A stretch of DNA of 64,000 nucleotides from Phycisphaerales bacterium (GCA_018644725.1 JABGPZ010000069.1:19055-83054); one strand, 5' to 3'; positions 13,546 through 33,459 are shown, numbered from the stretch's first letter. Numbers and translations are program-made. The notes: generated from the letters alone by a model not told the origin.

Positions 13546-14439
13546 ATGAAGATCTTGATTGTTGAAGACAATGTAGCGGCTCGGAAGCTGTTTGTGTCAG
13601 CGACGCGCAAACTGGGTCACGAAGTGGAATCCGCAGAAGATGGGATTCGGGCCTGGGAGATGGTTCAGGCGTATCAGCCTGACCTGGTGATCAGTGACAT
13701 TGAGATGCCCGGCATGGACGGTCTGCAGCTGTTGCGGCTGATTCAGGAGTCCAATCGCGAAACCATTGTCATGATCGTGACGGGCTATGGCAGTGAGCAA
13801 TATGTCAAGCAGGCCCTGCGCGACGGGGCGAGCAACTTCCTCTCCAAGCCCGTTCGCTTTGCAGAGCTGGAGTTCTGGCTTTCGGAATATCAACGCATTG
13901 TCGAACAGCGCGCCCAGCACGGTCAGGTCACCATCGATACGGGGGATCGGACCTATCTGCGTACCTTTGAGAATTACTACAAGCTCGTGCCGCAATATGC
14001 GGACGTGTTGCTGAGTGAGGTCGGCGAGCGCCTGGACAATACGCAAAAGCTGTCTGTGCGTCTGGGACTGGTCGAGCTGATTATGAATTCCATTGAGCAC
14101 GGCAATCTCGGAATCACCCAACAGGAAAAATCGGATGCGCTGAACGCCAATCGCCTCGCCGAATTGTACGAGCAGCGATTGCTGGACCCCAATCGGTTCC
14201 GTCGGGTTGTGACGGTTCATTGCAGCTATCTTCGGGATCACTGCGAATGGCTGATCTGTGACGAGGGCGAAGGGTTTGACTTCACGGCCGTGCCCGACCC
14301 CCTCAAGGCCATGGAGACGGGCGAATTCGCGTTCAATGGACGTGGGATTTTCCTCAGCCGGTTCCAGTTCGACGAAATGGAATATCTCGGCAGTGGCAAT
14401 CGTGTCCGCGTTCGCAAAAACATACTCTCTTCGGAATAA
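13546..14439 (+). CDS. Response regulator receiver domain fused to GHKL (RsbW/SpoIIAB-like, HATPase_c_2) ATPase domain
   Basis: Receiver: MKILIVEDN...DLVISDIEMPGMDG...SKP. C-terminal: LVELIMNSIEHGN...ICDEGEGFDF...GRGIFLSRF, matching the anti-sigma-factor-type kinase fold. GAGGA SD. Confidence 0.75.
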   Translation: MKILIVEDNVAARKLFVSATRKLGHEVESAEDGIRAWEMVQAYQPDLVISDIEMPGMDGLQLLRLIQESNRETIVMIVTGYGSEQYVKQALRDGASNFLSKPVRFAELEFWLSEYQRIVEQRAQHGQVTIDTGDRTYLRTFENYYKLVPQYADVLLSEVGERLDNTQKLSVRLGLVELIMNSIEHGNLGITQQEKSDALNANRLAELYEQRLLDPNRFRRVVTVHCSYLRDHCEWLICDEGEGFDFTAVPDPLKAMETGEFAFNGRGIFLSRFQFDEMEYLGSGNRVRVRKNILSSE

Positions 14440-14450
14440 CAGGCTCTACG

Positions 14451-15509
14451 ATGCACCCAACTTCACGCTCCCAACTTGGCGATTCCGCTTCGCCGCCACT
14501 TCGTATGTTGTTTTGGGAGACGACGGCACGATGCAATCTTGCGTGTAGCCATTGCCGCCGCCTCGATTTGGAGGCGACCCGTGACGAGTTGACCACCGAC
14601 GAAGCCAAGGCCCTGTTCCGCTCGGCCAAGAATCTCGGCGATCCGGTGGTGGTGTTCTCGGGCGGCGAACCGCTCCAGAGGCCGGACTGGGAACCGTTGG
14701 CCCACTATGCCCATCACGATTTGGGATTGACCATTGCGATGGCGACCAACGGGACACTCGTCGACGCGCAGATCGCCCGGAAGATCGCCGATGCCGGATT
14801 CCGCCGCGTCTCGATCAGTATCGACGGTGCCGATGCCGCGACCCACGATGCCTTTCGCAACCAGGTCGGCGCATTTGATGCCGCGCTCGCGGGTGCCAAA
14901 CACCTTCAGGACGTCGATATCCCTGTGCAGTTCAACGCGACGGTAACGACTCACAACGTCGATCAGCTCGACTCGCTCTATCGCTTTGTGATCGACAAGG
15001 GCGCGGTGGCGTTGCATCTGTTCTTGCTCGTGCCGGTGGGGTGCGGTGTGGAAATTGCCGAGACACAGCAAATCTCCTCCGAGCGCTACGAGCAGGTCCT
15101 TCAGTGGGTCTGCGACCGCCAGCTCGAAAACGAGATTGAATTGCGTGTGACGTGCGGCCCGCACTACTATCGCGTCGCCGCCCAGCGCGGGATCCCCGCC
15201 CAGCGAGGCCGTGGGTGTCTGTGTGGGATCAGCGTGGTCTTCGTCTCGCATCGTGGCGAGGTGTTCCCGTGCGGCTATTTTCCGCTGGACTGTGGGAATG
15301 TGCGAACGACGCCGCTGGACGAAATTTGGCGGACCAACGAGCATTTTTCTTCGCTGCGGGACTATGATCTTCTCGAAGGCCAGTGCGGCCGGTGTGGCTG
15401 GAAAAAAACGTGCGGCGGGTGTCGCGCGCGCGCCTATGCCGCCACGGGCAACTATCTCTCCGAAGAGCCATTCTGCGTGCTCACGGACAACAAGGGCAAC
15501 GCAAAATGA
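14451..15509 (+). CDS. Radical SAM / SPASM-domain protein, AhbD/NirJ/PqqE-like
   Basis: CX3CX2C motif TTARCNLACSHCRR about 25 aa from the N-terminus, so there is no RRE-type leader-binding domain. C-terminal Cys cluster CGRCGWKKTCGGCRARAY (SPASM/twitch). The CNLxCxHC form with a His favours AhbC/AhbD/NirJ over the anaerobic sulfatase maturase. Confidence 0.7.
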   Translation: MHPTSRSQLGDSASPPLRMLFWETTARCNLACSHCRRLDLEATRDELTTDEAKALFRSAKNLGDPVVVFSGGEPLQRPDWEPLAHYAHHDLGLTIAMATNGTLVDAQIARKIADAGFRRVSISIDGADAATHDAFRNQVGAFDAALAGAKHLQDVDIPVQFNATVTTHNVDQLDSLYRFVIDKGAVALHLFLLVPVGCGVEIAETQQISSERYEQVLQWVCDRQLENEIELRVTCGPHYYRVAAQRGIPAQRGRGCLCGISVVFVSHRGEVFPCGYFPLDCGNVRTTPLDEIWRTNEHFSSLRDYDLLEGQCGRCGWKKTCGGCRARAYAATGNYLSEEPFCVLTDNKGNAK

Positions 15510-15826
15510 CCGAGCATCTTCCGAAATATTTCGAGGCCGTCATGCTGGTCTGCTTTGGGCTCGGTTGGCCGATCTCCATCCTCAAAAGCTGGCGAACCAA
15601 ATATGTCCGCGGCAAAAGTGTGGGCTTTATGCTCATCATTTCCATGGGCTATCTCGCCGGAATCGCGTCTAAACTCTGTGATACCCACTTGCTCGACAAC
15701 GAATTTAACCATGTGACGTGGTTGTATGTGTTGAATTTGCTCTTTGTGCTGACTGACCTGGGGCTGTATTATTGCTATCGTAACAATCACGAGCCGCCCG
15801 AGGTGGGGAAAACGCCATCAGCGTAA
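15506..15826 (+). CDS. Small 3-TM membrane protein, PQ-loop/SemiSWEET-like
   Basis: ATGA overlap with the rSAM stop indicates translational coupling. The motif WPISILKSWRTKYVRGKSVGF resembles the PQ-loop pattern (PQIxKNYRTKSTEGLS). 106 aa with three hydrophobic helices. Confidence 0.5.
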   Translation: MTEHLPKYFEAVMLVCFGLGWPISILKSWRTKYVRGKSVGFMLIISMGYLAGIASKLCDTHLLDNEFNHVTWLYVLNLLFVLTDLGLYYCYRNNHEPPEVGKTPSA

Positions 15827-30521: not shown

Positions 30522-31526
30522 TTACGAGTTCTGAGATTCCCAGAGTGCTTCGTCAGTCGAACAATAGCGCACCCGTGATTTTTTATATTCCGTCGCCGAT
30601 TCCAAAAAGCATTCGTCGAGGGGGCAGATGCGTTCGCGCAATTCCGCGAGTACGGTTTGTGCCTGTTGCTCGTCGCGGGCGTGGACCATGGTATAGAGGT
30701 CGTACGGCCAGTCGGGATAGCTCACGCGCCGATAGCAATGGCTCACGGCGGGGTGTTCGGCGGCGCGCGCAGCGACCTGCGGCGAGGGGGTTTGCCAAAC
30801 GGCCATGACGTTGTGTCCCGCGCCTGTGCGGCGATGGTGGAACACGGCGGCATAGCGGCGCATCACTCCGCGATCGCGCAGGTCGTTGGCGATCGTCAGA
30901 AGGCGGTCTGTCGTGAGCGTCGGGTGGGTTGCGCAAAGCGCGTCAAACGGCGCAGCCGTCGCGGGCAGGTCGCGCTGGAGAAGTCCGACGGCCTGGATCA
31001 GTTCGTCGTTGAGTTCGATGGGTGGCGCGTCGTTCGGCGGTGGGGCGTCCGAGGCGTGTTGGGGCGTGTCGGCGGAAAAGTCGAATCGCACGGCCAGCTT
31101 GAGCGTTTCGATGGTCGGCAGGAGGTGATAGCATTCCACGCCAGCGAGTTCGGCTAGACGCGCGACGGTGGGCTCGAGCCCGAGGGCAGAATTGCCCGAG
31201 ACCGCGACGGTGAACCAGAGGCTGTAGCGCTCGTGGGTCCGCGCATAGCAATGGCTCACGCCAGGGTGAGCGGCGACGATCTGTCCGGCGGCGTCGGGAT
31301 TGGCCCCCGCCCCGAAGGCAACAAGCGCTTGGCGATATCCCAGAGCGGGTGGGTGAAAAATTGCGCTGATGTCGCGGATCACACCGCTTTGGCGCAGGGA
31401 GCTCACGCGCTGAATCACGTCTTGTTCTGTCGCGTCAAGCCGCTCGGCAAGGATCGCAAATGGACGCTCGCAAAGTGGAATGTCGCGTTGAAGCTGAGCC
31501 AAGATGGTCTTGTCGAGATCGTCCAC
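30522..31526 (-). CDS. Tandem Lrp/AsnC-like domain protein, siroheme decarboxylase-like (fused AhbA/AhbB or NirD/L-type)
   Basis: Two consecutive about 160-aa modules, each starting with an HTH (LDKTILAQLQRDIPLCERPFAILAERLDATEQDVIQRV and LNDELIQAVGLLQRDLPATAAPFDALCATH). GTG start at 31526 with an AAGGA SD right after the pyrD stop. The track's start at 31625 overlaps pyrD. Confidence 0.5.
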   Translation of the reverse strand: MDDLDKTILAQLQRDIPLCERPFAILAERLDATEQDVIQRVSSLRQSGVIRDISAIFHPPALGYRQALVAFGAGANPDAAGQIVAAHPGVSHCYARTHERYSLWFTVAVSGNSALGLEPTVARLAELAGVECYHLLPTIETLKLAVRFDFSADTPQHASDAPPPNDAPPIELNDELIQAVGLLQRDLPATAAPFDALCATHPTLTTDRLLTIANDLRDRGVMRRYAAVFHHRRTGAGHNVMAVWQTPSPQVAARAAEHPAVSHCYRRVSYPDWPYDLYTMVHARDEQQAQTVLAELRERICPLDECFLESATEYKKSRVRYCSTDEALWESQNS

Positions 31527-31534
31527 GGGAGTCC

Positions 31535-32458
31535 TTATTCGAGTGCGCCGATGATTTCGTTGATCGACGTGCAGCCGTGGCGCGTGAGGTATTCGTTGAT
31601 GGTGTCGCGGATTTCGACGATGCACGCAGGGTCGACAAACAGGGCCGTGCCGATCGCGAGGCCCGTCGCGCCCGCGAGGAGAAATTCCAGCGCGTCGCGC
31701 CCGGTTTGGATGCCGCCCATGCCGATGATCGGGATGCCCGCGGGCTTGGCGACCTGGGTGTAGACGCGGTGGACCATGTGGACGGCGACGGGTTTGATTG
31801 CCGGTCCCGAAAGCCCGCCCGTGCGGTTGGCGAGAACGGGTTTGCGGGTTTCGACGTCGACGACCATGGCCGTGAGCGTGTTGATGAGGCTCAGCGCGTC
31901 GGCCCCGCCCTCGACAGCGGCGGCCGCAATGGCGGTGATGTCGGTGACGTTGGGGCTGAGCTTGACGATGAGCTTGTTCTTGCCGCAGGCGGCCTTGACC
32001 GCGCGGGTGATTTCGGTTGCACTGGCGGGGTCGGTGCCGAACTGAATCCCGCCGGCCTTGACGTTCGGACAGCTGATGTTTAGCTCCAACGCCTTCACGA
32101 CATCCACGTTCGCGAGTGCTTCGGTCACTTGGACATAGTCGTCGATGTTCGTGCCAGCGATGTTGACGAACACCGGAAGGTTCAGTTCTTCCAGAAGCGG
32201 AATTTTCTCGTCGAGGAAGCGTTCGAGCCCGACATTCGCCAGGCCGATCGCGTTGAGCATCCCGCTGCGCGTTTCAACCACGCGCGGGTAGGGGTTGCCT
32301 TCGCGCGGTGCGACGGAGATGGACTTGGTGACGAACGCGCCGAGGGTGCGCAAGTCGACGAAGTCGGCATATTCGTTGGCATAGCCGCAGGTGCCGCTGG
32401 CGGTCATCAGGGGGTTGGCGAGTTCAATTCCGGCGATGTTGACGCTGAGATCAGGCAT
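31535..32458 (-). CDS. pyrD: Dihydroorotate dehydrogenase, class 1B catalytic subunit-like
   Basis: LANPLMTASGTCGYANEY...ISCPNVKAGG...LSGPAIKP...GGIQTGRDALEFLLAGA is the DHOD TIM-barrel signature. Confidence 0.85.
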   Translation of the reverse strand: MPDLSVNIAGIELANPLMTASGTCGYANEYADFVDLRTLGAFVTKSISVAPREGNPYPRVVETRSGMLNAIGLANVGLERFLDEKIPLLEELNLPVFVNIAGTNIDDYVQVTEALANVDVVKALELNISCPNVKAGGIQFGTDPASATEITRAVKAACGKNKLIVKLSPNVTDITAIAAAAVEGGADALSLINTLTAMVVDVETRKPVLANRTGGLSGPAIKPVAVHMVHRVYTQVAKPAGIPIIGMGGIQTGRDALEFLLAGATGLAIGTALFVDPACIVEIRDTINEYLTRHGCTSINEIIGALE

Positions 32459-32487
32459 GATGATGTTCCGTGGGTGGAGGTGGCGGG

Positions 32488-33459
32488 TTACCAGGTGGTG
32501 GGGTCGCGGAAGAAGTCGCGCAGGTTCATAGAAGCCGTCGCGCCGTCGGCGCAGGCGGTGACGAGTTGCATGGCCGCGCCTTGGCGGCAGTCGCCCGCGA
32601 TGAACACGCCCGGAGTCGTGGTTTTCATCGTATAGGGGTCGGCAGGGATATAGCCATGCTCGTCGATTTCGACGAGGCCTTGCGCGAAGCCGGTGTTGGG
32701 GACCATGCCGACGAAGACGAACACGCCGTCGACCTTGATCTCTTCGATGGCGTCGGTTTCGACATTGCGAATTTTGACGTGGTCAATTTCACTACCGTCT
32801 TCGGTGGCGACGATTTCGACCGGGACGTAGGGCAGCTTGACGTCGATGCCGTGCTCGTCGGCCTTTTCGTACAGTTCGTTGACGAGAATCTGTTGGGCGC
32901 GGAATTCGCGTCGGCGGTGGATGAGCGTCGTCTTTTTGGCGAAGCGAGTGGCGAGGTAGATCGCGTCTTCGACGGCCGTGTTGCCTCCGCCGATGGTGAG
33001 GACGGTTTTGTCGCGATAGAACGCGCCGTCGCACGTCGCGCAGTAGCTGACCTTGCCGACTTGGCGGAGTTCATTTTCGCCGGGCAGGCCCAGCTGGCGG
33101 TACTCGCTGCCGGGGGTGAGGATGACCGAGCGGCCTTTGTAGGTGGCTTCGCCTGCGTTGGCGACGAGGGTGAACGTGCCATCGTCTTCGCGCGTGATGG
33201 AGTCCACCGCGCGGTTGGTGACGATTTCAGCACCGAAGTGAGTGGCTTGGGTTTTCATCGATTCGACGAGTTCAAACCCGCCGATTTTGAGATAGCCGGG
33301 GTAGTTTTCAATGTGCTCGGTGAGCATGATCTGTCCGCCGGGCAGGCCGTTTTTTTCGATGAGTAGGGTTTTGTTGCCGTCGCGCGCTGCATAGAGGCCC
33401 GCGGCAAGGCCCGCAGGCCCCGCACCGACAATGATGACGTCGTAGAGTGAATCAGACAT
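32488..33459 (-). CDS. trxB: Thioredoxin-disulfide reductase
   Basis: FAD site YDVIIVGAGPAG, redox-active CATCDG, NADPH site GGGNTAVEDA. GGAG SD. Confidence 0.9.
   Translation of the reverse strand: MSDSLYDVIIVGAGPAGLAAGLYAARDGNKTLLIEKNGLPGGQIMLTEHIENYPGYLKIGGFELVESMKTQATHFGAEIVTNRAVDSITREDDGTFTLVANAGEATYKGRSVILTPGSEYRQLGLPGENELRQVGKVSYCATCDGAFYRDKTVLTIGGGNTAVEDAIYLATRFAKKTTLIHRRREFRAQQILVNELYEKADEHGIDVKLPYVPVEIVATEDGSEIDHVKIRNVETDAIEEIKVDGVFVFVGMVPNTGFAQGLVEIDEHGYIPADPYTMKTTTPGVFIAGDCRQGAAMQLVTACADGATASMNLRDFFRDPTTW

What the first reader, a model, noticed from the sequence alone, without database searches (positions are those of the whole stretch)
30522..31526. Fused AhbA/AhbB-like siroheme decarboxylase in a trxB-pyrD operon, with an AhbD-like rSAM 15 kb away
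Two tandem Lrp/AsnC-like modules in one polypeptide match the NirDL/AhbAB architecture used for siroheme decarboxylation in the alternative heme (or heme d1) pathway. The gene is transcriptionally linked to thioredoxin reductase and DHOD (GTG start 5 nt after an AAGGA that abuts the pyrD stop). With the NirJ/AhbD-like rSAM at 14451, this hints at a siroheme-dependent heme route whose genes are dispersed and not clustered.
Basis: partly seen in the sequence, partly recalled or inferred. Interest (0 to 1): 0.5.

Follow-up and report, generated by a model that had tools for sequence, protein, structure and literature searches.

The report
Fused siroheme decarboxylase in a Phycisphaerales genome
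The gene is a real single-chain siroheme decarboxylase (AhbA fused to AhbB) in a Phycisphaerales planctomycete, most likely part of the oxygen-independent siroheme route to heme, and it is an ordinary new member of a well-known enzyme family.

Summary
Window 30522-31526 (-) encodes a 334-aa protein. Its N-terminal half passes NCBI's curated AhbA model and its C-terminal half passes the AhbB model. Lrp/AsnC regulator models score at most 31 bits. Both catalytic HxYxR motifs are intact. An AlphaFold model (pLDDT 92) matches the fused NirDL crystal structure over its full length.

The gene follows trxB and pyrD on the same strand, 8 nt after the pyrD stop. Relatives at 72-75% identity keep this order, but none of 80 more distant genomes does.

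The radical SAM gene at 14451 best matches AhbD. It has the full eight-cysteine SPASM pattern and lacks the N-terminal extension of the lipid enzyme Gms. Its Phycisphaerae orthologues sit directly after AhbC.

No AhbC lies in the window. An AhbC does carry NCBI accession numbers in the same blocks as the identical AhbD in two Phycisphaerales MAGs, so the set is probably complete but scattered.

The fusion is already described for most archaea and occurs in at least 598 genome loci. JGI already names both genes correctly. NCBI calls the decarboxylase a transcriptional regulator.

Siroheme synthase and the absence of the classical routes could not be checked. Verdict: new member of a known kind, low interest.

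The parts
30522..31526 (-). ahbAB: single-chain siroheme decarboxylase, 334 aa, GTG start, TAA stop at 30522-30524
   Evidence: NCBIfam AhbA 180.4 bits (cutoff 140) and AhbB 197.5 bits (cutoff 125). Pfam NirdL-like_HTH and AsnC_trans_reg2, each twice. Full-length match to the NirDL chain 4ch7, E 2.8e-48. AlphaFold pLDDT 92; Foldseek TM 0.75/0.80 to 4ch7. dN/dS 0.19-0.26 against relatives.
31068..31526 (-). AhbA-like module (residues 1-153): HTH plus RAM-like beta-sheet domain
   Evidence: Aligns to D. desulfuricans AhbA (4czd_A) over residues 2-153. The best AhbA model stretch is residues 5-150.
31239..31253 (-). HxYxR motif 1 (H92-C-Y94-A-R96)
   Evidence: Aligns to AhbA His115/Tyr117/Arg119, which are the iron ligand and a propionate contact in Palmer et al. 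2014 (PMC4145669), and to NirDL H93. H92, Y94 and R96 are invariant in 15 homologues.
30525..31016 (-). AhbB-like module (residues 171-334)
   Evidence: Aligns to AhbB (4czd_B) over residues 171-321. The best AhbB model stretch is residues 182-321. The linker at about residues 151-170 has the lowest pLDDT of the model.
30726..30740 (-). HxYxR motif 2 (H263-C-Y265-R-R267)
   Evidence: Aligns to AhbB His98/Tyr100/Arg102. The PDB chain numbering is 20 higher because of the His tag. The R102A mutant is inactive (PMC4145669). Also aligns to NirDL H261. H263 and R267 are invariant in 15 homologues.
31532..31536 (-). Shine-Dalgarno-like AAGGA, overlapping the pyrD stop codon, 5 nt before the GTG
   Evidence: Read directly from the sequence.
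31535..32458 (-). pyrD (class 1 dihydroorotate dehydrogenase), immediately upstream in the same orientation
   Evidence: Pfam DHO_dh 289.5 bits. NCBIfam NF005574 412 bits, cutoff 269. pyrD-ahbAB adjacency is kept in L081, L082 and L085.
32488..33459 (-). trxB-like thioredoxin reductase, first of the three linked genes
   Evidence: Pyr_redox_2 166 bits. TIGR01292 320 bits, just under its cutoff of 343. The order trxB-pyrD-ahbAB is kept in L085.
14451..15509 (+). ahbD-like radical SAM/SPASM protein (352 aa), probable coproheme decarboxylase (heme b synthase)
   Evidence: Best NCBIfam hit is TIGR04545 AhbD, 385 bits, covering model positions 1-337 of 339, but below the cutoff of 500. NirJ2 scores 311, AhbC 162 and NirJ 183. 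CX3CX2C at residues 28-35 and the full eight-cysteine SPASM pattern of PMC10452713 are present. Orthologues at 58-64% identity sit directly after AhbC in L086, L087 and L091. JGI's name is 'AdoMet-dependent heme synthase'.

Best explanation
The gene encodes a single-chain siroheme decarboxylase, with AhbA fused to AhbB. The two Lrp/AsnC-like modules fold back on each other into a pseudo-heterodimer. Its central cleft, lined by one HxYxR motif from each half, binds siroheme and removes the C12 and C18 acetate carboxyl groups to give 12,18-didecarboxysiroheme.

In this Phycisphaerales bacterium the product is most likely passed to AhbC, encoded elsewhere in the genome, which makes Fe-coproporphyrin III. 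The AhbD-like radical SAM enzyme encoded 15 kb away then makes heme b. This is an oxygen-independent route whose genes are scattered and not clustered.

Shown here: family membership, fold, motif conservation, purifying selection, the operon layout, and ahbC-ahbD or ahbC-ahbAB adjacency in relatives.

Inferred: enzyme activity, AhbC being in the same genome, and heme b as the end product.
For: - AhbA and AhbB equivalog models both pass their curated cutoffs, while regulator models score at most 31 bits.
- The protein matches the fused NirDL structure 4ch7 over its full length (E 2.8e-48) and the separate AhbA and AhbB chains.
- The AlphaFold model has pLDDT 92 and pTM 0.88. Its best PDB matches are NirDL 4ch7 and 4czc, TM 0.75-0.81.
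- H92/Y94/R96 and H263/Y265/R267 align to the catalytic HxYxR residues of Palmer et al. 2014.
- dN/dS is 0.19-0.26.
- One homologue (P0041) is fused to siroheme-synthase-like domains.
- The radical SAM protein best matches AhbD, has the AhbD cysteine pattern and has no Gms-type N-terminal extension (PMC11214058).
- Its orthologues follow a bona fide AhbC in three Phycisphaerae loci: 673 and 627 bits (cutoff 650) in two of them, and in the third (L091) an AhbC that NCBI names 12,18-didecarboxysiroheme deacetylase.
- A Phycisphaeraceae MAG has an AhbC-like gene (456-474 bits, below the 650 cutoff) followed directly by fused ahbAB. A Clostridia MAG has ahbC-ahbD-ahbAB.
- AhbC P0367 (614 bits, full length) carries accessions MBT3278369.1 and MBT7171666.1. 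These fall in the same blocks as the 100% identical AhbD (MBT3279090.1, MBT7170476.1) and AhbAB (MBT3279103.1) of 'Phycisphaerales bacterium' MAGs.
- A neighbour-joining tree places the protein in a Planctomycetota clade, apart from the NirJ-linked Campylobacterota clade.
Against: - No AhbC, siroheme synthase or other tetrapyrrole gene lies in the 64-kb window or in about 8.7 kb to its left.
- AhbC being in the same genome rests only on accession-number proximity in binned MAGs.
- The AhbD-like protein (385 bits) and P0367 (614 bits) both fall below NCBI's strict equivalog cutoffs (500 and 650).
- AhbD alone is known to occur in organisms that use the coproporphyrin route and lack the other Ahb enzymes (PMC13564367).
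- Planctomycetota are reported to carry ChdC in most genomes (PMC10991733, PMC5095920), so a second route may coexist.
Confidence: 0.75

Rival explanations
1. The decarboxylase serves heme d1 synthesis as a NirDL-type enzyme. It would supply didecarboxysiroheme to NirJ, NirF and NirN for a cytochrome cd1 nitrite reductase, not for heme b.
For: The chemistry is identical, and the closest solved structure is the heme d1 enzyme NirDL. Fused homologues in Campylobacterota lie next to NirJ-type radical SAM genes, with NirJ the best hit at 390-398 bits.
Against: The only radical SAM gene of this type in the window scores 183 bits on NirJ against 385 on AhbD. No nirS-, nirF- or nirN-like domain was found by the Pfam scans of the window. 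Relatives pair the genes with AhbC and AhbD, not NirJ. The protein falls outside the NirJ-linked clade.
Confidence: 0.07
2. The organism makes most of its heme by the coproporphyrin-dependent route, as reported for Planctomycetota. AhbD would then be only the anaerobic substitute for ChdC, and AhbAB would be a back-up or a relic.
For: Planctomycetota are reported to carry ChdC in most genomes analysed (PMC10991733, PMC5095920). AhbD occurs in coproporphyrin-route organisms that lack the other Ahb enzymes (PMC13564367). In the window, ahbD is uncoupled from ahbC, unlike in its relatives.
Against: AhbAB is under purifying selection with intact catalytic motifs. An AhbC appears to be in the same MAGs. 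A decarboxylase plus a deacetylase have no known role other than making coproheme or heme d1. The two routes can coexist, as proposed for Haloferax (PMC5746218), so this is a partial rival and not an exclusive one.
Confidence: 0.15
3. The protein is a tandem Lrp/AsnC-type transcription factor, as NCBI annotates the identical sequence, and regulates neighbouring genes.
For: NCBI names MBT3279103.1 'Lrp/AsnC family transcriptional regulator'. The HTH_AsnC-type Pfam domain is detected at 30.4 bits. Individual modules superpose on Lrp structures with TM 0.7-0.8 relative to the target.
Against: The best regulator model scores 31 bits against a cutoff of 180, while AhbA and AhbB pass theirs. The classical ligand-binding domain PF01037 is below threshold, at 16.8 bits against 25. 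The HxYxR catalytic motifs are conserved. The Lrp-like fold is a known property of the enzyme family (PMC4145669).
Confidence: 0.03

Closest known systems
NirDL of Hydrogenobacter thermophilus (PDB 4ch7, 4czc), a fused siroheme decarboxylase
   Same: Both are single polypeptides with two Lrp/AsnC-like modules in the same order. The alignment is full length (E 2.8e-48; 28% identity in the structural alignment, TM 0.75-0.81). Histidines H93 and H261 correspond to H92 and H263.
   Different: NirDL works in heme d1 synthesis inside a nir cluster. The window gene sits in a trxB-pyrD string, with an AhbD-type enzyme nearby and no NirJ-type enzyme.
AhbA/AhbB heterodimer of Desulfovibrio desulfuricans (PDB 4czd, 4un1) and Methanosarcina barkeri
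   Same: The family models match. The catalytic residues are the same: AhbA His115 and Arg119, and AhbB His98, Tyr100 and Arg102. The presumed pathway is the same: siroheme to didecarboxysiroheme to coproheme to heme b.
   Different: Those enzymes are made of two separate subunits, and their genes are clustered with ahbC and ahbD. Here the subunits are fused and the gene is separated from the rest of the pathway.
Fused AhbAB of non-methanogenic archaea (Storbeck 2010; Kuehner 2014, PMC3942049; mSystems 2024, PMC11237513)
   Same: The AhbA-AhbB order and the single-gene architecture are the same. The Nitrososphaeraceae proteins are 36-40% identical.
   Different: This one is bacterial (Phycisphaerales) and falls in a Planctomycetota-specific clade.
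Gms (GMGT synthase), the AhbD paralogue of the tetraether-lipid clusters (PMC11214058)
   Same: The radical SAM/SPASM core is homologous to AhbD. In other Planctomycetota a Gms-like gene lies next to the fused ahbAB (L026, L083).
   Different: Gms carries an N-terminal lipid-binding extension of 100 aa or more and clusters with tes. The window protein is 352 aa, starts at the radical SAM core, and has orthologues that cluster with ahbC.

Membership tests
Siroheme decarboxylase (AhbA/AhbB; NirD/L/G/H) | Scores above the curated family cutoffs for both subunit models | tested here: met
   NF040708 AhbA 180.4 bits (cutoff 140) and NF040707 AhbB 197.5 bits (cutoff 125).
Siroheme decarboxylase (AhbA/AhbB; NirD/L/G/H) | Two Lrp/AsnC-like modules (HTH plus beta-sheet domain) forming a pseudo-heterodimer | tested here: met
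   Pfam NirdL-like_HTH and AsnC_trans_reg2, two stretches each. AlphaFold pLDDT 92. Full-length Foldseek match to NirDL, TM 0.75/0.80.
Siroheme decarboxylase (AhbA/AhbB; NirD/L/G/H) | Conserved HxYxR motif in each module facing the active-site cleft (Palmer 2014) | tested here: met
   HCYAR at residues 92-96 and HCYRR at residues 263-267 align to AhbA H115/Y117/R119 and AhbB H98/Y100/R102.
Siroheme decarboxylase (AhbA/AhbB; NirD/L/G/H) | Catalyses siroheme to 12,18-didecarboxysiroheme | not testable with these tools
   This needs the in vivo or in vitro HPLC-MS assay.
Siroheme-dependent (Ahb) heme b pathway | AhbD (coproheme decarboxylase) is present in the same genome | tested here: met
   An AhbD-like gene lies 15 kb away on the same contig. 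Its cysteine pattern is that of AhbD.
Siroheme-dependent (Ahb) heme b pathway | AhbC (didecarboxysiroheme deacetylase) is present in the same genome | tested here: inconclusive
   AhbC is absent from the window. AhbC P0367 (614 bits, cutoff 650) has accessions MBT3278369.1 and MBT7171666.1, in the same blocks as the identical AhbD and AhbAB in two MAGs. This is circumstantial.
Siroheme-dependent (Ahb) heme b pathway | Siroheme synthesis genes are present, and the protoporphyrin and coproporphyrin branches are absent or redundant | not tested
No such genes lie in the window.
AhbD heme synthase (radical SAM/SPASM) | Passes the TIGR04545 equivalog cutoff | tested here: not met
   The score is 385.3 bits against a cutoff of 500. 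AhbD is still the best hit and the match is end to end. Phycisphaerae orthologues next to AhbC score the same, 375-381 bits.
AhbD heme synthase (radical SAM/SPASM) | CX3CX2C plus the full SPASM pattern CX20-33CX17CX36-37CX2CX5CX2CX17-35C (PMC10452713) | tested here: met
   The regular expression matches residues 28-35 and 235-342. Cysteines at 256, 274, 312, 315, 321, 324 and 342 coincide with the M. barkeri numbering. A version of the pattern with wider spacing limits is found in 116 of 119 homologues.
AhbD heme synthase (radical SAM/SPASM) | No COG4001-type N-terminal extension (separates AhbD from Gms) | tested here: met
   The protein is 352 aa, and the AhbD model match starts at residue 19. 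The criterion comes from PMC11214058.
Lrp/AsnC transcription regulators | Scores as a regulator family member with a RAM ligand-binding domain | tested here: not met
   The best regulator model, LysM, scores 30.9 bits against a cutoff of 180. PF01037 scores 16.8 bits against 25.
Heme d1 (nir) system | Co-located with nirS, nirJ, nirF or nirN | tested here: not met
   There is no NirJ-type radical SAM gene: NirJ scores 183 bits against a cutoff of 515. A tblastn search with AhbC found only the AhbD-like gene. The window Pfam scans found no nir domains.

The most novel reading that the evidence does not exclude
This Phycisphaerales lineage may rely on the oxygen-independent siroheme route as its only way to make heme. 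That would place it in a phylum the heme literature files under the coproporphyrin (ChdC) route. The pathway genes would be fully scattered, and the decarboxylase would be locked into a conserved trxB-pyrD-ahbAB transcription unit.

Taken with the at least 598 genome loci in more than ten phyla that carry the fused enzyme, this would mean that 'archaea and sulfate reducers' seriously understates where this pathway operates.
Probability: 0.3. Interest if true: 0.4.

Novelty: new member of a known kind. Interest (0 to 1): 0.22.

Why it matters
There are three modest points of value.

1. **Annotation.** The identical NCBI protein is labelled a transcriptional regulator, although it passes both siroheme decarboxylase models.
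2. **Distribution.** Phycisphaerae are added to the bacteria likely to use the oxygen-independent siroheme route. This bears on how planctomycetes in low-oxygen habitats supply their many cytochromes.
3. **Method.** Ahb genes can be unlinked, so cluster-based pathway calls would miss them.

None of this changes what is known about the enzyme or the pathway.

Tried and rejected
- **Exact look-up of the DNA translation** failed because the GTG start reads as V. The M-start protein P0001 worked.
- **Second radical SAM of the AhbC or NirJ type in the window.** tblastn with a Phycisphaeraceae AhbC and a CX3CX2C scan found only the AhbD-like gene.
- **Other tetrapyrrole genes in the window.** Pfam scans of essentially all window genes found none.
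- **Walking outward with edge genes.** About 8.7 kb to the left holds squalene-hopene cyclase-like, polyprenyl synthase, MscS, prephenate dehydrogenase, GrpE and DnaJ genes, and no heme genes. To the right there is only a short contig.
- **pyrD or trxB linkage in 80 distant fused-ahbAB loci.** There were no pyrD hits and one unrelated trxB hit, so a general functional coupling was rejected.
- **Promoter and terminator scan.** It was uninformative, with counts near shuffle expectation. It shows no terminator-like site on the minus strand within the trxB-pyrD-ahbAB string.
- **Solved structure for AhbD.** The PDB has none; the best matches are other SPASM enzymes.
- **Literature.** The Dailey 2017 review (PMC5312243) is not held. 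No paper linking Phycisphaerae to siroheme-dependent heme synthesis was found.
- **Gms reading of the radical SAM protein.** Considered and rejected on length, absence of the N-terminal extension, and ahbC synteny of its orthologues.

Full report
**Observation.** The pyrD stop codon TAA occupies 31537-31535. AAGGA occupies 31536-31532, so it overlaps the stop codon and does not merely abut it. Five bases (CTCCC) then separate it from the GTG. A longer reading frame from a GTG at 31625 would overlap pyrD by 91 nt. It is not supported, because homologues begin at the same MDxLDK N-terminus and JGI's own gene call is 334 aa. trxB (32488-33459) and pyrD (31535-32458) lie directly upstream on the same strand, with gaps of 29 and 8 nt.

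**What the protein is.** Pfam finds two NirDL-like HTH domains and two AsnC_trans_reg2 domains. NCBI's curated equivalog models give AhbA at 180.4 bits (cutoff 140) on residues 5-150 and AhbB at 197.5 bits (cutoff 125) on residues 182-321. The best Lrp/AsnC regulator model reaches only 30.9 bits against a cutoff of 180.

- Against the PDB, the best match is the naturally fused NirDL of Hydrogenobacter thermophilus (4ch7, E 2.8e-48, full length). The separate AhbB and AhbA chains of Desulfovibrio desulfuricans follow, on the C- and N-terminal halves respectively.
- An AlphaFold2 model built on 15 homologues has mean pLDDT 92 and pTM 0.88. Only the linker at about residues 151-170 has low confidence.
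- Foldseek returns NirDL 4ch7 and 4czc first (E about 1e-27, TM 0.75-0.81). The AhbA and AhbB chains come next, and true Lrp regulators follow only as single-module matches.

**Catalytic residues.** Palmer et al. 2014 (PMC4145669) describe a conserved HxYxR motif in each subunit. In AhbA, His115 ligates the iron and Arg119 contacts a propionate. In AhbB, His98, Tyr100 and Arg102 are the proposed catalytic triad, and the R102A mutant is inactive. In the HMMER alignments, H92/Y94/R96 of the window protein fall on AhbA 115/117/119. H263/Y265/R267 fall on AhbB chain positions 118/120/122, which are residues 98/100/102 after subtracting the 20-residue tag. They also fall on NirDL H93 and H261. H92, Y94, R96, H263 and R267 are invariant in the 15-sequence alignment. 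Against the two closest relatives, dN/dS is 0.19-0.26, so the gene is under purifying selection. It does diverge faster than its neighbours: 72-74% amino-acid identity, against 89-93% for PyrD and TrxB.

**Source organism.** The protein is 100% identical to JGI's P0001, which JGI names 'siroheme decarboxylase'. It is also 100% identical to NCBI MBT3279103.1, on a 241,970-bp contig of a 'Phycisphaerales bacterium' MAG, which NCBI labels 'Lrp/AsnC family transcriptional regulator'. The window's many sulfatase-type and domain-free ORFs fit a planctomycete.

**The radical SAM gene at 14451-15509.**

- Its best family match is AhbD (TIGR04545, 385 bits, covering model positions 1-337 of 339). NirJ2, the Desulfovibrio name for AhbD, follows at 311 bits. 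AhbC and NirJ reach only 162-183 bits. The score is below NCBI's strict cutoff of 500, so formal equivalog membership is not met.
- It has the CX3CX2C motif at residues 28-35 and the full eight-cysteine SPASM pattern that Fix et al. 2023 (PMC10452713) describe for methanogen and sulfate-reducer AhbD. Cysteines at 256, 274, 312, 315, 321, 324 and 342 coincide with the M. barkeri numbering.
- It lacks the N-terminal extension of 100 aa or more that distinguishes the AhbD paralogue Gms, a lipid-bridging enzyme that is common in Planctomycetes (PMC11214058).
- Orthologues at 58-64% identity in three Phycisphaerae contigs (L086, L087, L091) sit immediately after an AhbC. The L086 and L087 copies score 627 and 673 bits against a cutoff of 650, and NCBI names the L091 copy '12,18-didecarboxysiroheme deacetylase'.
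- At least 13 AhbC hits share their contig length with AhbD hits, which suggests that ahbC-ahbD pairing is the norm in the class.
- JGI names the identical protein 'AdoMet-dependent heme synthase'.

**Is the pathway complete?** The window holds no AhbC- or NirJ-type radical SAM gene other than the AhbD-like one. It holds no other tetrapyrrole gene by Pfam. The same is true of about 8.7 kb to its left.

An AhbC is probably present elsewhere in the genome. P0367 is 394 aa, scores 614 bits and matches the AhbC model end to end. It carries the NCBI accessions MBT3278369.1 and MBT7171666.1, and both records are named 'Phycisphaerales bacterium'. The window's AhbD is MBT3279090.1 in one assembly and MBT7170476.1 (partial) in another. 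The AhbC and AhbD accessions therefore fall within about 700 and about 1,200 numbers of each other in two independent assemblies. The simplest reading is that AhbC lies on another contig (21,950 bp) of the same genome. This is circumstantial, because it depends on binning and on accession order.

Siroheme synthase, and the presence or absence of UroD, CpfC, ChdC or HemN/Y/H, could not be examined.

**Context in relatives.** The order trxB-pyrD-ahbAB is kept in relatives whose decarboxylase is 72-75% identical (L085; pyrD-ahbAB in L081 and L082). None of 80 more distant loci has pyrD nearby. In the window, the three genes are the tail of a long run of co-directional genes with unrelated functions: glycosyltransferases, a flippase-like protein, a methyltransferase and EamA. 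The scan found no terminator-like site on the minus strand within the string. Co-transcription is therefore plausible but says little about function.

Elsewhere the linkage varies:

- ahbC-like followed directly by ahbAB in a Phycisphaeraceae MAG (L015; 456-474 bits on the AhbC and NirJ1 models, below the 650 cutoff);
- ahbC-ahbD-ahbAB in a Clostridia MAG (L005);
- a NirJ-type neighbour in Campylobacterota, where the role is presumably heme d1.

A neighbour-joining tree, without support values, places the window protein in a Planctomycetota clade, away from the NirJ-linked clade. One homologue (P0041) is fused to siroheme-synthase-like domains, which is independent support for the siroheme link.

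**Comparison with what is known.**

- Fusion of ahbA and ahbB is described for all heme-making archaea except methanogens (PMC3942049) and again in a 2024 fusion survey (PMC11237513).
They span Firmicutes, Actinomycetota, Chloroflexota, Nitrospirota, Verrucomicrobiota, Planctomycetota, Campylobacterota and Nitrososphaeria.
- Reviews still describe the pathway as one of 'archaea and sulfate-reducing bacteria' or 'a limited number of organisms' (PMC10452713, PMC13564367).
- Planctomycetota are cited as carriers of ChdC, the coproporphyrin route (PMC10991733, PMC5095920).
- AhbD alone is known to accompany the coproporphyrin route in some anaerobes (PMC13564367), so AhbD by itself proves little. 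The decarboxylase, together with AhbC, carries the argument.
- No paper linking Phycisphaerae to this route was found. Pipeline annotations by JGI, and by NCBI for AhbC, already assign the functions.

**Verdict.** The protein is a fused AhbAB siroheme decarboxylase. It is very probably active, and it most likely feeds an AhbC and AhbD route to heme b whose genes are scattered in this Phycisphaerales genome. It is a new member of a known kind, already correctly named by one pipeline, so the interest is low. The modest gains are a correction to the NCBI label and one more bacterial class for the siroheme route.

Noticed in passing
window 15506-15826 (+): A 106-aa predicted membrane ORF overlaps the stop codon of the ahbD-like gene by 4 nt, which suggests translational coupling. 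JGI also calls it. It has no Pfam hit and no homologue in any of the 92 fetched loci, including the ahbD loci of relatives.
   Followed up: partly
L026 10988-15024; L083 and L084 11102-15190: In other Planctomycetota the fused ahbAB is convergent with a 566-572-aa AhbD paralogue that carries an N-terminal extension of about 185 aa. A 158-162-aa ORF and a Tes-type radical SAM gene (495 bits, cutoff 450) follow. This is the Gms-Tes membrane-spanning-lipid cluster of PMC11214058. The adjacency of a heme gene to the lipid paralogue of AhbD may be a trace of where gms arose.
   Followed up: partly
window 31535-33459 (-): pyrD is a class 1 dihydroorotate dehydrogenase (PRK07259 type, 412 bits), but no pyrK electron-transfer subunit gene lies next to it. 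The upstream gene is a trxB-like flavoprotein with a CATC motif, and it scores just under the TIGR01292 cutoff (320 against 343 bits).
   Followed up: no
P0041 (homologue): A 543-aa protein joins a fused AhbAB (43% identical to the window protein) to C-terminal siroheme-synthase-like domains (PF13241 and PF14824). This is a Rosetta-stone link between siroheme formation and its decarboxylation.
   Followed up: partly
window 30522-31526 (-), which equals NCBI MBT3279103.1: NCBI annotates the 100% identical protein as 'Lrp/AsnC family transcriptional regulator', although it passes NCBI's own current AhbA and AhbB models. JGI names it siroheme decarboxylase.
   Followed up: yes
window 13546-14439 (+): A response-regulator receiver domain fused to an HATPase_c_2 (anti-sigma-kinase-like) domain ends 11 nt before the ahbD-like start codon. 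It occupies the position that ahbC holds in related Phycisphaerae.
   Followed up: no
window 30522-33459 compared with L081, L082 and L085: Within the conserved trxB-pyrD-ahbAB string, the decarboxylase diverges much faster (72-74% amino-acid identity, dN/dS 0.19-0.26) than PyrD and TrxB (89-93% identity, dN/dS 0.11-0.14).
   Followed up: yes
left of window position 1 (JGI locus listing): The JGI gene list extends about 8.7 kb beyond the left edge of the window, although the JGI contig is given as 65,375 bp. An identical NCBI contig of 241,970 bp exists. The window's exact source record is therefore ambiguous.
   Followed up: no
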